Below are positions 211-52,968 of a stretch of 64,000 nt of DNA, piece by piece. Made by a program: the position numbers and the translations under genes. The stretch comes from Escherichia phage moskry, in the sequence record MN850651.1. One strand, 5' to 3'. Each line of letters begins with the position of its first letter. Position 1 is the stretch's first letter. The notes under the pieces were generated by a model. That model ran no database searches. It saw nothing but the letters and a program-made list of their open reading frames with translations, and was not told the origin of the DNA.

Positions 211-1383
211 TTATTCATCGAAATCTTCCATTTCGTCAAGGTCGTTTTCTATATCTGCTGCAGACGGAGCATCAGAAGTTTTAACAGGAACTTTAGTTGT
301 TGCTTTGCAATTAATAAGGTCGTTAACAGCGTCATCAACTTCTTTAATAGAAGAGATAGCACCTAGTTTATATTTAGTTTCAATTGCATCTCGGAAAGGT
401 TTGTGTTTAAACAAAGGTCCCCAGAATTCTACACAATCAGTAGCTTTAGCACGCCATGATTTTTCTTCACGAATCATTTCACCTGTTTCTTCGTCAAGGA
501 ATTCACGAGCATACCAACCGGCTTTAGGCTTAACTACAAAACCAATTTCAGTTGCCATTTCTAACAAGCCACTGAATGGGTCAATACCGCCATCAAAATT
601 AACCGTGATTGGGAAAGTAGATTTCTCTTTAACTGTACGAGATTTTTCTGCTTTCAACGTGAAGTCATAACCGGTCAATTCTGTACCTTCTTTAACCTGA
701 CGTTTAGAGATAAAGAATACAGTGTTAGCAGAGTAAAGAATACCTGTACCACCACCCATAATCTCTTTAGGATATAGTCCGCCGATTTCCATTGCTGTAT
801 GGTTGATTGCAACACACGGAATATCTTTAATAGTCAGATAAGGAGTCACAATACGGAACAGAGATTTAAGTGCCTTAGCACGAGACATATCACCTACAAC
901 TTTCTCGTTCAATGCATCTTCGGTTTCTTTCTTAGATGCAGTATTACCAATCGAGTCAATAAAGATAATAACTTTATCACCGCGTTCAATAGCGTCAAGC
1001 TGATTAGTCATATCGACTTTAAGTTGTTCGACAGACTGAATTGGTGTATGAACTACACGGTCTAAATCGACACCCATCGAACGGAAGTAAGATTCTGAAG
1101 CACCGAATTCTGAGTCATAAAACAAACAGATTGCATCTTTATATTTCTTCATATACGCTGCAACCATAGTTAGTCCAAACAATGTTTTAAAATGTTTAGA
1201 AGGTGCAGCAAAAATAGTCAAGCCTGATTGCAATCCTGCATTCAGAGCACCACCTAGTGCAATATTCAACATCGGAATACGAGTAGGGACTTCATCACGA
1301 TTATTAAACAGCTTAGACTTAGTCAAGTCTGCAGTCATTTTAGAAGTAGAAGCTTTAATCAGACGAGATTTTAAATCAGACAT
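211..1383 (-). CDS. uvsX: UvsX RecA-like recombinase
   Basis: 390 aa; near-collinear with recalled T4 UvsX (MSDLKSRLIKASTSK..., KETEDALNEKVV, GWYAREFLDEETGEMIREEKSWRAK). Confidence 0.95.
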   Translation of the reverse strand: MSDLKSRLIKASTSKMTADLTKSKLFNNRDEVPTRIPMLNIALGGALNAGLQSGLTIFAAPSKHFKTLFGLTMVAAYMKKYKDAICLFYDSEFGASESYFRSMGVDLDRVVHTPIQSVEQLKVDMTNQLDAIERGDKVIIFIDSIGNTASKKETEDALNEKVVGDMSRAKALKSLFRIVTPYLTIKDIPCVAINHTAMEIGGLYPKEIMGGGTGILYSANTVFFISKRQVKEGTELTGYDFTLKAEKSRTVKEKSTFPITVNFDGGIDPFSGLLEMATEIGFVVKPKAGWYAREFLDEETGEMIREEKSWRAKATDCVEFWGPLFKHKPFRDAIETKYKLGAISSIKEVDDAVNDLINCKATTKVPVKTSDAPSAADIENDLDEMEDFDE

Positions 1384-50845: not shown

Positions 50846-51478
50846 TTACTTACGAGTTTTTGCATACTGAGCAGCGTCAGCAGCCAAACGACCTGCCTGA
50901 CGAAGTTTTTCTTTAATCTCATCATGAAGTGGTTGAGTATACTTCAAACCTTCGATAGTCAAATAAAGACGATAAAGGTCTGGGGTATCAAGGTTGTTGA
51001 TATGTTGGCCATTACGAAGACTATTGAATTCACGAACGAGTGAAGATGTATCGGATTCAATATCACGAACAAGCGAAGATAGTTGTTTATATTTTTTTTC
51101 CAGGCTAGAAGTATCAAACTTAAGAGCAGGAGCTTTAGGAGTTGCTTTTACTTCAGGCTTAGGCTTAGGTTCAGGTTTTGCTATTGCTTTAGGGGTCGCA
51201 GGTTTAGGAATGGTAGGAGCAGGTTTTACTTTAGGCGAACCCGATTTAGCAGAAACACCACCACTAACAATATCTTTGAATGCTTTAGAAGCTCTGTAAT
51301 ATTCTTTTTGGCTGGAAGTGTCGATACCGTACATGGCTTGAACGTTTTTGAAAAACTCTGTACTAGTTTTTGTACCAGAAATAGCATCGTAAGCAGCTTG
51401 CCATTTCTCTTTTGTCATACGTACGCCGGCTTCGGTGATTACTTCCGTTTCGGCTAAAAATTCATTAAAAGTATACAT
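50846..51478 (-). CDS. Internal-protein-like head protein with Pro/Lys-rich linker
   Basis: 210 aa; N-terminus MYTFNEFLAE (targeting-sequence-like); PKVKPAPTIPKPATPKAIAKPEPKPKPEVKATPKAP; TATAAATA late promoter motif at 51512-51519. Confidence 0.6.
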   Translation of the reverse strand: MYTFNEFLAETEVITEAGVRMTKEKWQAAYDAISGTKTSTEFFKNVQAMYGIDTSSQKEYYRASKAFKDIVSGGVSAKSGSPKVKPAPTIPKPATPKAIAKPEPKPKPEVKATPKAPALKFDTSSLEKKYKQLSSLVRDIESDTSSLVREFNSLRNGQHINNLDTPDLYRLYLTIEGLKYTQPLHDEIKEKLRQAGRLAADAAQYAKTRK

Positions 51479-51522
51479 TGATGGTCCTTAGAAAGTGGGT
51501 TTATTGTTTACTATATTTATAC

Positions 51523-51550
51523 AAAAAAGCCCCAACCTTTCGGAAGGGGC
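51523..51550 (-). terminator. Rho-independent terminator
   Basis: Minus strand GCCCCUUCCGAAAGGUUGGGGC followed by UUUUUUG. Confidence 0.65.
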
Positions 51551-51853
51551 TATATACCTTGTCGGGGTTCCACCTGCTAAGGCAAGTGTTTGTACGAAAC
51601 GCCGGGATTCGAACCCGGTTATTAAGTAGTTGACGCTACTCAATATTTTTAAAAGGCCATATCTCGACCATATCCGAACGTTCCGTCAAAAACGCTACTC
51701 GGCTTACGGCAAAGATATTTCCTCGAATCGATAATTCGGTGCGCCGTTTCTGCTGTGATGTAAGGGGATATTAACAAATCGTAAAGATTTATTAAGACCA
51801 GTCCTTACTCAGGGAACATCAGTCCGACGACTTACCGGTAGCGACCCGGCTTC

Positions 51854-52198
51854 TTATTTTGACATATCATCAATTTGCTCTCGACGCCGACGCCATAGAT
51901 TAATCGCTTCATTAACACATTCGGCGTTTGGTATATGACGGCAATAATATAATGATTCGCGTTTCTGGAACCGATGTTGCAATGGGATTTCGTTTAAAAG
52001 GTCTTTACGGTCAAAGTATTCAAAACTAGTTAACCCAGAACGGTTTTTAAGGAACTTCCAATGACCGAATTCATTTTGAACATAGATGTAATCTGCATGT
52101 TGGTATAACAAATTAATCAATCGGTCTGAAATAACTGTATCATGTTCGTTAAAATAAAACGTTAAATCATGAACTACTAAGTAAACATTACCTTTCAT
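51854..52198 (-). CDS. Hypothetical protein adjacent to tRNA genes
   Basis: MKGNVYLVVHDLTFYFNEHD...; ORF track start at 52246 would overlap tRNA-Arg, so internal Met preferred. Confidence 0.45.
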   Translation of the reverse strand: MKGNVYLVVHDLTFYFNEHDTVISDRLINLLYQHADYIYVQNEFGHWKFLKNRSGLTSFEYFDRKDLLNEIPLQHRFQKRESLYYCRHIPNAECVNEAINLWRRRREQIDDMSK

Positions 52199-52219
52199 AT
52201 TTTCCTCACTTGAAGTTGG

Positions 52220-52293
<74 letters not shown>

Positions 52294-52299
52294 AATATA

Positions 52300-52373
52300 T
52301 GACCCAGACCAGATTCGAACTGGTAACCTTTCCCTTATGAGGGGACTGCTGCTAACCATTGAGCTACAGGGCC
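52300..52373 (-). tRNA. tRNA-like gene, anticodon CAU (Met or lysidine-Ile type), irregular D-arm
   Basis: T-arm ACCAG-TTCGAAT-CTGGT, anticodon loop CTCATAA, acceptor GGCCCTG/CTGGGTC with one U-U mismatch; D-stem does not pair canonically. Confidence 0.5.
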
Positions 52374-52452
52374 TAAATAACTTTCTATTATGAAAGGCAC
52401 TTTAGAGCACCTTTGGTAATAGAGGGTATGAATTAATAATAACACATAATTC

Positions 52453-52968
52453 TTAAAGCAAATCAATCATTTTAACAGTCGGCAAAACGATTTCTTCTTC
52501 AATATAAGCAAATTCAACACATTCAACTACACGCAAGAAATCATAATCATAATATTCAGAAGCATTGCCAAGAATATCAGTGAGACCTTCTGATACCAAA
52601 TATCCATTCTCACGGAACAGGTCAAATACACGTGATTCGTCTTCTTCAGATTTATTACCGAGGTCGACTTCAATATCAAAGACCTTTTTAATGAATTCTG
52701 GATAAAGATGGTCTGAGAACAGTCCTTCAACCAAGTATTCATAGATTAAAAGCGAGCAATCACTGAATAGTGTATTACCACAGTAACGTTCAGCTTTAGT
52801 ACTAGAATGACGACTCTTAAATTTCTTCAAGAGATATTTAAACTGTTGGAGCTCATGCTCTTCTACACCAAATAATGTTTTGGTTTTATAGTTGTCACCG
52901 TCATTTTCCGAAGTAGTGACATCAATTACGTAACCCTTAGGAATTGTACTGCCTAAACAAATATTCAT
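52453..52968 (-). CDS. Hypothetical acidic protein
   Basis: 171 aa. Confidence 0.5.
   Translation of the reverse strand: MNICLGSTIPKGYVIDVTTSENDGDNYKTKTLFGVEEHELQQFKYLLKKFKSRHSSTKAERYCGNTLFSDCSLLIYEYLVEGLFSDHLYPEFIKKVFDIEVDLGNKSEEDESRVFDLFRENGYLVSEGLTDILGNASEYYDYDFLRVVECVEFAYIEEEIVLPTVKMIDLL

What the first reader, a model, noticed from the sequence alone, without database searches (positions are those of the whole stretch)
51555..51853. About 300-nt ORF-free structured region with tRNA-like T-arm next to the tRNA genes
Between the terminator at 51523..51550 and the next gene there is no credible ORF. The minus strand carries a canonical T-arm (CCGGG-TTCGAAT-CCCGG, plus coordinates about 51601..51617) and a potential acceptor-like pairing partner about 150 nt upstream (GAAACGG near 51745). 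This could be a stable small RNA comparable to T4 species 1/2 RNAs, a degenerate tRNA, or an interrupted tRNA.
Basis: seen in the sequence. Interest (0 to 1): 0.5.

Follow-up and report, generated by a model that had tools for sequence, protein, structure and literature searches.

The report
T4 species 1/2 small RNAs

Summary
Window 51857..51593 (minus strand) is orthologous to the T4 genes rnaD (species 2 RNA, 88% identical, with an invariant 5' 45 nt and 3' 25 nt) and rnaC (species 1 RNA, 138/139 identical). A conserved 37-nt trailer and the operon terminator follow. Flanking protein genes are only 65-80% identical to T4.

The T-arm (51618..51602) belongs to rnaC.

Across 27 distinct homologues from several Tevenvirinae genera and from Marfavirus, 96% of cells pair in one fold and 27 of 47 pairs show compensatory changes. 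The fold has four parts:
- a 7-bp acceptor-like stem with a conserved tandem U.U;
- a length-conserved long arm;
- a 10-bp hairpin;
- a T-arm.

The two apical loops (UUGACG and CGUCAA) are exactly complementary and co-vary (UUGGCG/CGCCAA), which indicates a kissing interaction.

In Karamvirus, rnaC fills a slot between two tRNAs. rnaD-like RNAs follow tRNAs in Karamvirus, Jiaodavirus and Vequintavirinae.

There is no Rfam family, tRNA call or host homologue. Function is unknown in the literature; a tRNA-pathway-matured protein-binding mimic is my inference.

The parts
52436..52462 (-). MotA-box-like middle promoter (TTTGCTTTA, then TATTAT about 12 nt downstream) just upstream of tRNA-Met; likely start of the transcription unit
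   Evidence: Regex scan. T4 has a middle promoter just upstream of its tRNA cluster (PMC2330249). This is a consensus match only.
52300..52373 (-). tRNA-Met (CAT)
   Evidence: ARAGORN; Rfam tRNA 54 bits
52217..52293 (-). tRNA-Arg (TCT)
   Evidence: ARAGORN; Rfam tRNA 71 bits
51854..52201 (-). 115-aa ORF with a GAGGA Shine-Dalgarno sequence, phage family phrog_3355 (function unknown), inserted between tRNA-Arg and rnaD. Its TAA stop overlaps the T4-defined 5' end of rnaD.
   Evidence: E = 2.4e-50; no Pfam family. T4 has rnaD 1 nt after tRNA-Arg.
51738..51857 (-). rnaD (species 2 RNA) orthologue, about 120 nt. It has a 5' hairpin GCCGG-GUCGCUA-CCGGU (51850..51834), a closing stem GUCGUCG (51831..51825) with CGGCGCAC (51746..51739), an inner stem and a variable long arm.
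   Evidence: Alignment to T4 rnaD: (106/120, conserved blocks identical). Core fold: (98.9% of cells paired, 7 of 15 pairs compensatory).
51732..51737 (-). 6-nt A/U-rich spacer GAAUUA between rnaD and rnaC. The same AAUUA-type leader separates a tRNA CCA end from rnaC in Karamvirus.
51593..51731 (-). rnaC (species 1 RNA) orthologue, 139 nt by the T4 annotation
   Evidence: 138/139 identical to T4 rnaC; covariance model hit of 156 bits; z = -4.56
51724..51730 (-). rnaC acceptor-like stem, 5' strand CGAUUCG. It pairs with 51601..51595 (CGUUUCG), with a conserved tandem U.U in the middle.
   Evidence: helix 1 is 100% paired; position 3 is A-U in 9 sequences and G-C in 18
51653..51723 (-). rnaC long arm, about 22 bp with internal loops. 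Its length is conserved to within about one nt even where the sequence is unalignable. The apical loop UUGACG is at 51689..51684.
   Evidence: helices 2-5, with 16 pairs showing compensatory changes
51620..51645 (-). rnaC 10-bp hairpin with loop CGUCAA (51635..51630), the exact complement of the long-arm loop (kissing interaction)
   Evidence: the 6 loop-loop pairs are 100% paired in 27 of 27 sequences, with A-U changing to G-C in the Marfavirus type
51602..51618 (-). rnaC T-arm CCGGG-UUCGAAU-CCCGG, contiguous with the acceptor 3' strand as in a tRNA
   Evidence: the middle pair occurs as G-C, U-A and A-U
51595..51601 (-). rnaC acceptor-like stem, 3' strand CGUUUCG, followed by the conserved tail U-ACAA (UCCAA in Marfavirus)
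51556..51592 (-). Conserved trailer containing the hairpin CACUUGC-CUUA-GCAGGUG. In Dhakavirus it follows rnaD directly, with rnaC precisely absent.
   Evidence: 36/37 identical to T4
51523..51550 (-). Intrinsic terminator of the tRNA/rnaD/rnaC unit
   Evidence: Sequence. In T4, transcription terminates after the species I RNA gene (PMC2330249). Annotated as a terminator in the close relative G2469.

Best explanation
The region carries two non-coding RNA genes, the orthologues of T4 rnaD (species 2 RNA) and rnaC (species 1 RNA). They are the last genes of the tRNA transcription unit.

Shown here:
- Homology and synteny with the T4 genes.
- The promoter-like site upstream and the terminator downstream.
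- A covariation-supported fold for each RNA.
- rnaC has a tRNA 'top half': a 7-bp acceptor-like stem stacked directly on a 5-bp, 7-nt-loop T-arm. Its D and anticodon arms are replaced by a long arm and a 10-bp hairpin whose apical loops are complementary and co-vary.
- In Karamvirus, rnaC sits in a tRNA-sized slot between two tRNAs.

From the literature on T4: both RNAs accumulate as stable species, are part of the roughly 1.75-kb tRNA precursor, and have no known function.

Inferred biogenesis: the RNAs are cut out of the polycistronic precursor by the host tRNA-maturation enzymes. RNase P would act at the rnaC 5' end, using the acceptor/T-arm minihelix. RNase E-type cuts would fall in the A/U-rich spacers, followed by 3' trimming.

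Inferred function (about 0.3 probability):
- rnaC does not decode. It acts as a stable tRNA mimic that occupies or recruits a protein recognising the acceptor/T-arm end of tRNAs. The partner could be a host tRNA-processing or modifying enzyme, or a tRNA-end-targeting immunity toxin.
- rnaD is an independent structured RNA that influences host-strain-specific infection efficiency.
For: Identity:
- One search aligns the whole stretch to T4 rnaD, the spacer, rnaC and the trailer.
- One search gives 138/139 identity for rnaC, 106/120 for rnaD and 36/37 for the trailer. Flanking genes are 62-80% identical.
- One search shows the T4 annotation and gene order.

rnaC structure:
- RNAalifold finds 42 pairs, 26 of them compensatory.
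- Including the kissing helix, 96.9% of cells pair on 13 sequences and 96.0% on 27 distinct sequences. Register-shifted controls give 35-46%.
- 27 of 47 pairs show changes on both sides, and no shuffle out of 500 reaches the observed values.
- The kissing helix is paired in 27 of 27 sequences, with UUGACG/CGUCAA changing to UUGGCG/CGCCAA.

rnaD structure: the core is 98.9% paired and 7 of 15 pairs are compensatory.

tRNA-pathway context:
- rnaC lies between tRNA-Trp and tRNA-Gly in Karamvirus, with a 5-nt leader and 3-4 nt before the next tRNA.
- rnaD-like RNAs lie directly after tRNA-Asn in CC31, RZH and KP185, and after tRNA-Met in the Vequintavirinae phage W70.
- Marfavirus encodes a true CCA after the discriminator.

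Literature:
- The RNAs are stable, accumulate late and were validated by Northern blot; their function is unknown (PMC9697503; PMC3014915).
- They are part of the tRNA precursor that terminates after species I (PMC2330249).
- A single convergent SNP in rnaD raised virulence of the T4-like phage BW1 on ECOR34 from 0.17 to 0.98 (PMC12685909).
Against: - No experiment here shows expression, RNA ends or processing in this phage.
- In T4-type phages the 3' tail is UACAA, not CCA, so charging and CCA-dependent recognition are doubtful.
- A lineage of homologues (Winklervirus type) has a non-canonical T-loop, UGCAU(G)C. T-loop-specific recognition therefore cannot be universal.
- The acceptor stem carries two U.U mismatches.
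- The kissing helix rests on one evolutionary compensatory event. An approximately 26-bp-equivalent arm kissing a 10-bp hairpin from the same junction looks sterically strained in cis; this is my reasoning and was not computed.
- From my own knowledge: T4 deletions that remove the tRNA region are viable on laboratory strains, so any function is conditional.
- The BW1 SNP could have been a pre-existing variant, and it lies in the variable arm of rnaD.
- No conserved protein-gene neighbour points to a partner.
Confidence: 0.85

Rival explanations
1. The structured region acts only in cis. It would be a 3' processing or stability module of the tRNA operon, protecting the precursor from 3' exonucleases and organising RNase cuts. 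The 'stable RNAs' would then be inert by-products.
For: In T4-type phages the RNAs sit at the 3' end of the tRNA unit, before the terminator. No trans function has been found in 50 years.
Against: - rnaC keeps the same fold and length when it lies in the middle of a tRNA array (Karamvirus), after an ORF or hairpin (Kanagawavirus), or in Marfavirus.
- rnaC and rnaD occur independently of each other.
- Near-invariant single-stranded and loop sequences, and 99% identity against 65-80% in the flanks, exceed what a passive stabiliser needs.
- Both accumulate as abundant RNAs.
Confidence: 0.1
2. The 3' roughly 94 nt of rnaC is a real, unusual class-II-like tRNA. Some GenBank records annotate it as tRNA-Lys(UUU).
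For: Annotators call tRNA-Lys(ttt) here in G2133, phage 55, G4507 and G29. Rfam gives tRNA-Sec a weak 17 bits. An internal CGGAACG can pair with CGUUUCG, and the linker contains CUUUUAA.
Against: - ARAGORN finds nothing, and Rfam scores are far below threshold.
- The internal acceptor strand is mismatched (A.C) in most Karamvirus-type sequences. It is absent in fGh-Ecl01, Kosakonia 305 and Marfavirus, which keep the terminal stem.
- CUUUUAA is not conserved and does not sit in a 7-nt loop.
- Covariation supports a different fold, in which GGAACG pairs locally with CGUUU.
Confidence: 0.02
3. It is an interrupted tRNA: the T-arm plus CGUUUC pairs with GAAACG about 150 nt upstream, with an intron-like insert between them.
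For: There is a 6-nt complementarity between 51750..51745 and 51601..51596. In phages that carry both RNAs, rnaC has U rather than C at the position that improves this match.
Against: - GAAACGG lies inside mature rnaD, whose CGGCG pairs with GUCGUCG.
- There is no rnaD, and no GGAACG, upstream of rnaC in Karamvirus, Moonvirus, Kanagawavirus, Winklervirus or Marfavirus.
- No group I or other intron model matches.
- A 6-mer match between two RNAs of about 130 nt is expected by chance several times over.
Confidence: 0.02
4. The region encodes a small protein: the 42-aa ORF at 51649..51777, annotated as hypothetical in relatives.
For: The ORF is listed and annotated in G2469 and in many other records ('hypothetical protein' under the match).
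Against: - It has a TTG start in the variable arm of rnaD and no Shine-Dalgarno sequence, and it spans two RNA genes.
- The upstream half is replaced by a tRNA in Karamvirus.
- The variation consists of base-pair compensatory changes, not synonymous changes.
Confidence: 0.01

Closest known systems
Bacteriophage T4 species 1 RNA (rnaC) and species 2 RNA (rnaD)
   Same: These are orthologues. rnaC is 138/139 identical, and rnaD is 88% identical with identical conserved blocks. The order (rnaD, 6-nt spacer, rnaC, trailer, terminator) and the position at the end of the tRNA unit are the same.
   Different: In this Mosigvirus a 115-aa ORF (phrog_3355) separates tRNA-Arg from rnaD, whereas T4 has 1 nt between them. 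The tRNA set is reduced to Met and Arg. The variable arm of rnaD differs.
tRNA top half (acceptor/T-arm minihelix) and the tRNA-like domain of tmRNA
   Same: A 7-bp terminal stem is directly continuous with a 5-bp T-stem and a UUCGAAU loop. The RNA is located in tRNA arrays. The rest of the molecule exits where the D and anticodon arms would be.
   Different: - No anticodon loop, no tag reading frame and no G3.U70.
- A tandem U.U in the stem.
- A 3' UACAA tail instead of CCA, except in Marfavirus.
- Not detected by ARAGORN or by the Rfam tRNA and tmRNA models.
Plant-virus tRNA-like structures and bacterial YrlA (Y RNA-like) tRNA mimics
   Same: These are non-decoding RNAs that imitate part of a tRNA to engage tRNA-binding proteins. 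This comparison rests on my own knowledge and is a lead only.
   Different: There is no sequence or model similarity; the only YrlA match lies on the real tRNAs. Those RNAs have different architectures, with no kissing-loop body.
   Same: One RNA carries two loops that are complementary to each other and co-vary. This allows intermolecular ring or dimer formation. The comparison rests on my own knowledge.
   Different: There is no homology and no link to packaging genes. Whether pairing in rnaC is cis or trans is unknown.

Membership tests
T4 rnaC (species 1 RNA) | Full-length sequence homology to T4 rnaC | tested here: met
   138/139 identical; 156-bit hit to a covariance model built from 13 homologues, this copy among them
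T4 rnaC (species 1 RNA) | Position at the end of the tRNA unit, between rnaD and the trailer and terminator | tested here: met
T4 rnaC (species 1 RNA) | Shared conserved secondary structure | tested here: met
   96% of cells paired, 27 of 47 pairs compensatory
T4 rnaC (species 1 RNA) | Accumulates as a stable RNA of about 140 nt in infected cells | not testable with these tools
   Shown for T4 only, by Northern blot (PMC9697503)
T4 rnaD (species 2 RNA) | Sequence homology to T4 rnaD and position immediately upstream of rnaC | tested here: met
   106/120 identical, with invariant 5' and 3' blocks and the same 6-nt spacer
T4 rnaD (species 2 RNA) | Shared core fold (5' hairpin, closing stem, inner stem) | tested here: met
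   98.9% of cells paired, 7 of 15 pairs compensatory, across Tequatrovirus, Mosigvirus, Dhakavirus, Gaprivervirus, Karamvirus, Jiaodavirus and Vequintavirinae
Canonical tRNA | Cloverleaf with D-arm and a 7-nt anticodon loop, detectable by tRNA models | tested here: not met
   ARAGORN finds none. No Rfam tRNA match is listed in this stretch at gathering score or at E up to 10; the only tRNA-clan match is tRNA-Sec at 17 bits against a threshold of 47.
Canonical tRNA | Acceptor stem contiguous with the T-arm | tested here: met
Canonical tRNA | 3' CCA end and aminoacylation | tested here: inconclusive
   Encoded UACAA here, UCCAA in Marfavirus. Addition of CCA or charging cannot be tested.
tmRNA | Tag reading frame, pseudoknots, G3.U70 alanine identity | tested here: not met
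   ARAGORN finds no tmRNA and Rfam finds none. Position 3 is A-U or G-C.
tRNA interrupted by a group I intron | Intron core detectable, with exons forming a cloverleaf | tested here: not met
   No intron family at E up to 10. The proposed 5' exon partner is not conserved.

The most novel reading that the evidence does not exclude
It would work as a decoy or adaptor for a factor that recognises tRNA acceptor/T-arm ends, for example an immunity toxin that modifies or cleaves tRNA 3' ends. rnaD would be a separate structured RNA that is sensed by, or blocks, a strain-specific host defence. Together they would make these 50-year-old orphan RNAs RNA-based host-range determinants of T4-like phages.
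Probability: 0.15. Interest if true: 0.75.

Novelty: already known. Interest (0 to 1): 0.35.

Why it matters
The genes themselves are textbook T4 features, so the finding is not new. Three points still make it useful.

- **An open question becomes testable.** The function of these RNAs has been open since the 1970s. The covariation-supported architecture found here gives concrete handles for experiments: the tandem U.U acceptor stem, the length-conserved arm and the co-varying complementary loops in rnaC, and the core fold of rnaD. I found no description of this architecture in the searchable literature.
- **The RNAs are mobile modules.** Each occurs without the other and is embedded in tRNA arrays. 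They are spread beyond Straboviridae, into Marfavirus and Vequintavirinae.
- **Annotation is poor.** There is no Rfam family. Among the roughly 800 matching phage genomes, the records I looked at mostly leave the locus unannotated, or label it 'hypothetical protein' or 'tRNA-Lys'.

Tried and rejected
**RNA family and tRNA searches**
- Rfam at gathering thresholds and at E up to 10 found nothing in the region. ARAGORN found nothing there either.
- Hammerhead-like reading of the rnaD core (CUGAUG ... GAAAC): rejected. The core deviates from the consensus, no Rfam ribozyme model matches, and the motif is not kept in the Karamvirus and Jiaodavirus homologues.

**Functional ideas**
- PrrC/tRNA-Lys decoy, based on CUUUUAA in the rnaC linker and the 'tRNA-Lys' annotations: rejected because the motif is not conserved.
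- rnaD hairpin loop CGCUAC pairing with GUAGCG in rnaC: judged to be chance. Several 6-mer matches are expected between RNAs of this size, and the loop differs in W70 and CC31.

**Database scans**
- The genome-contig scan used too loose a pattern.
- The same loose pattern on viral contigs gave 109 loci, of which 16 were real after filtering.
- A tighter 3'-half pattern on metagenomes and viral contigs found only T4-type, Winklervirus-type and Marfavirus-type copies plus 4 chance hits. No new loop variants appeared.
- BLAST against 5,426 E. coli genomes found nothing, and BLAST against plasmids found nothing meaningful.

**Literature**
- Searches for a function, or for the old processing work (p2Sp1, species 1 RNA), found no functional study. 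The Miller 2003 review is not held.

Full report
**What is there**

All genes in this part of the window run on the minus strand. The window comes from a T4-like phage of the genus Mosigvirus; the best matches are vB_EQ1, G2469 and RB69-type phages at 97-99% identity.

- The T-arm CCGGG-TTCGAAT-CCCGG is at 51618..51602, one base off the stated coordinates.
- GAAACGG is at 51750..51744.
- A hairpin plus U6 terminator is at 51550..51523.

Only short ORFs with TTG or GTG starts cross the stretch. ARAGORN finds only tRNA-Met (52373..52300) and tRNA-Arg (52293..52217). Rfam finds nothing in the region, either at gathering score or at E up to 10.

**Identity**

Aligning the region with the annotated T4 genome settles what it is. 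Window 51857..51738 corresponds to T4 rnaD ('species 2 RNA', 119 nt). Positions 51737..51732 are the 6-nt spacer. Window 51731..51593 corresponds to T4 rnaC ('species 1 RNA', 139 nt). Positions 51592..51556 are a conserved trailer that precedes the terminator.

| Segment | Identity to T4 |
|---|---|
| rnaC | 138/139 |
| rnaD | 106/120, all differences in the central arm |
| trailer | 36/37 |
| neighbouring genes trna.2, trna.3, trna.4 | 65-80% at the DNA level |

The RNAs are therefore under much stronger constraint than their surroundings.

**Transcription unit**

A MotA-box-like middle promoter (TTTGCTTTA, then TATTAT) lies at 52462..52436, just upstream of tRNA-Met. A T4 late promoter, TATAAATA (51521..51514), follows the terminator and heads the next gene.

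The unit therefore reads: promoter, tRNA-Met, tRNA-Arg, a 115-aa ORF of phage family phrog_3355 (51854..52201), rnaD, rnaC, trailer, terminator. This matches what is described for T4, where one precursor of about 1.75 kb carries the tRNAs and both RNAs and terminates after species I (PMC2330249). The inserted ORF is a difference from T4, where rnaD starts 1 nt after tRNA-Arg.

**Structure of rnaC**

I collected homologues from the following groups:
- Tequatrovirus and Mosigvirus;
- Karamvirus (ZX13, Pet-CM3-4, fGh-Ecl01, CW742);
- Moonvirus (KM16);
- Kanagawavirus (Kosakonia 305);
- Winklervirus (Virsaitis27);
- Marfavirus, which is not a member of Straboviridae (P545, Potts1);
- IMG/VR contigs.

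All are 140-143 nt long over the same span (1 nt short of the annotated T4 5' end, 3 nt past its 3' end), even where the central 60 nt cannot be aligned.

RNAalifold predicts 42 pairs, 26 of them with compensatory changes. The window copy folds into the same structure with z = -4.56.

The architecture is a four-way junction:
- an acceptor-like stem, CGRUUCG/CGUUYCG, with a conserved tandem U.U; its third pair is A-U in T4-type phages and G-C elsewhere;
- a long arm of about 22 bp;
- an A-rich linker;
- a 10-bp hairpin;
- a T-arm, directly continuous with the acceptor 3' strand; its middle pair occurs as G-C, U-A and A-U.

I also noticed that the apical loop of the long arm (UUGACG, 51689..51684) is the exact complement of the hairpin loop (CGUCAA, 51635..51630). 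In the Marfavirus type both change together, to UUGGCG and CGCCAA.

Counting the whole structure including this kissing helix gives these figures:

| Alignment | Cells paired | Register-shifted controls | Pairs changed on both sides |
|---|---|---|---|
| 13 sequences | 96.9% | 35-44% | 27 of 47 |
| 27 distinct sequences | 96.0% | 35-46% | 27 of 47 |

None of 500 shuffles reached the observed values, and the six loop-loop pairs are intact in 27 of 27 sequences. The loop-loop covariation rests on a single evolutionary event. The data cannot say whether the pairing is within one molecule or between two.

GAAACGG belongs to the 3' closing stem of rnaD. In Karamvirus, Moonvirus, Kanagawavirus, Winklervirus and Marfavirus there is no rnaD upstream of rnaC, yet the terminal partner CGGUUCG is always present and co-varies.

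Some GenBank records call the 3' 94 nt of rnaC 'tRNA-Lys(ttt)'. That reading uses an internal CGGAACG as the acceptor strand. This strand is mismatched in most Karamvirus sequences and absent in fGh-Ecl01, Kosakonia 305 and Marfavirus. In the conserved fold it pairs locally instead. The 'anticodon' CUUUUAA is not conserved.

**tRNA-array context**

In Pet-CM3-4, fGh-Ecl01 and CW742, rnaC fills the gap between tRNA-Trp and tRNA-Gly exactly. It has a 5-nt A/U leader after the CCA and 3-4 nt before the next tRNA.

The same AAUUA-type leader separates rnaD from rnaC here. The 3' tail is U-ACAA everywhere except Marfavirus, which encodes U-CCAA.

This is the arrangement expected for an RNA released by the tRNA-maturation machinery. 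RNase P needs only an acceptor/T-arm minihelix (established knowledge). That step is inferred and was not tested here.

**rnaD**

rnaD has an invariant 5' block of about 45 nt and a 3' block of about 25 nt, flanking a variable arm.

Related RNAs occur in several contexts:
- without rnaC in Dhakavirus, where rnaD is joined directly to the trailer;
- after tRNA-Asn in Karamvirus CC31 and RZH and in Jiaodavirus KP185;
- directly after tRNA-Met in the Vequintavirinae phages W70 and A73.

Across 12 sequences the core fold (5' hairpin, closing stem GUCGUCG/CGGCGCAC, inner stem) is 98.9% paired, against 31-49% in shifted controls. Seven of its 15 pairs show compensatory changes. rnaC and rnaD are thus separate modules that can each occur alone.

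**Distribution**

About 800 phage genomes in the INPHARED collection match. Scans of IMG/VR and of metagenomes with a specific 3'-half pattern found only the same enterobacterial-phage types. No match exists in 5,426 complete E. coli genomes, and none of significance in plasmids. My genome-contig scan used too loose a pattern and returned only chance hits.

**Function**

The literature available here says the roles of RNAC and RNAD are unknown (PMC3014915, 2010; PMC9697503, 2022; PMC12685909, 2025). They accumulate late and are detectable by Northern blot.

One experimental hint exists. [quoted passage not shown] Virulence rose from 0.17 to 0.98.

From the anatomy I commit to the following, as inference. 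rnaC is a non-decoding, tRNA-derived mimic matured by the tRNA pathway. It presents an acceptor/T-arm end on a rigid body locked by a loop-loop interaction, and it acts by binding a protein that recognises tRNA ends. rnaD is an independent structured RNA involved in host-strain-specific interactions. I give this functional part about 0.3 probability. Identity, gene boundaries by homology, and the folds are secure.

Points against a simple tRNA-mimic role:
- the non-CCA tail in T4-type phages;
- the U.U mismatches in the acceptor stem;
- a lineage with a non-canonical T-loop, UGCAU(G)C;
- the dispensability of the T4 tRNA region on laboratory hosts (my own knowledge).

**Verdict**

The feature is already known (T4 rnaC and rnaD) but functionally orphan. 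The added value here is the covariation-supported architecture, the co-varying complementary loops, the modular distribution in tRNA arrays beyond Straboviridae, and the recognition that many database records mis-annotate the locus.

Noticed in passing
window 51514..51521 (-): A canonical T4 late promoter, TATAAATA, lies immediately after the terminator. It heads the 210-aa ORF at 50846..51478 (phrog_2280, function unknown).
   Followed up: partly
window 52436..52462 (-): A MotA-box-like sequence, TTTGCTTTA, followed by TATTAT lies just upstream of tRNA-Met. It is probably the middle promoter of the tRNA/rnaD/rnaC unit.
   Followed up: partly
window 51854..52201 (-): A 115-aa ORF with a strong Shine-Dalgarno sequence (phrog_3355, no Pfam family) is inserted between tRNA-Arg and rnaD, where T4 has 1 nt. 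Its stop codon overlaps the T4-defined 5' end of rnaD, so the 5' end of rnaD or its processing may differ in this phage.
   Followed up: partly
L246 476..613 (Karamvirus CC31); the same place in L248 and L247: After the rnaD-like RNA there is a further unannotated gap of about 140 nt, with hairpins, before tRNA-Asp. It may be another RNA embedded in the tRNA array.
   Followed up: no
L017 and L018, about 465..527 (Marfavirus P545 and Potts1): A GC-rich hairpin, GGGGTGG...CCCACCCC, lies between tRNA-Met and the rnaC-like RNA.
   Followed up: no
L016 535..674; L041, L101, L112, L263: A lineage of rnaC homologues (Winklervirus type) replaces the T-loop UUCGAAU with UGCAU(G)C while keeping the stem and the rest of the fold.
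   Followed up: partly
L245 1500..1596 (Vequintavirinae W70; A73 is identical): An rnaD-like RNA lies directly after tRNA-Met in an rV5-like phage. It is a mosaic, with the T4-type core and a Karamvirus-type arm, which indicates horizontal exchange of these RNA modules.
   Followed up: partly
L007, L008 and L249 (Dhakavirus) compared with window 51593..51737: rnaC is precisely absent: rnaD ...GCGCACCGA joins straight to ACACTTGCC of the trailer. Homing endonuclease genes are annotated next to the locus in several relatives (ZX13, AnYang, CW742, IME341). This suggests cassette-like gain and loss.
   Followed up: partly
GenBank records MK327928 (L010 971..1064), OQ599310, NC_054919, MK327940, MK327934: The 3' 94 nt of rnaC is annotated as tRNA-Lys(ttt), or a 42-aa 'hypothetical protein' is called across rnaD and rnaC. 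Both look like annotation artefacts.
   Followed up: yes
window 52217..52373 compared with L001 3174..4531: This phage has only two tRNAs (Met, Arg) where T4 has eight, and its tRNA-Arg is not similar in sequence to the T4 tRNA-Arg.
   Followed up: no
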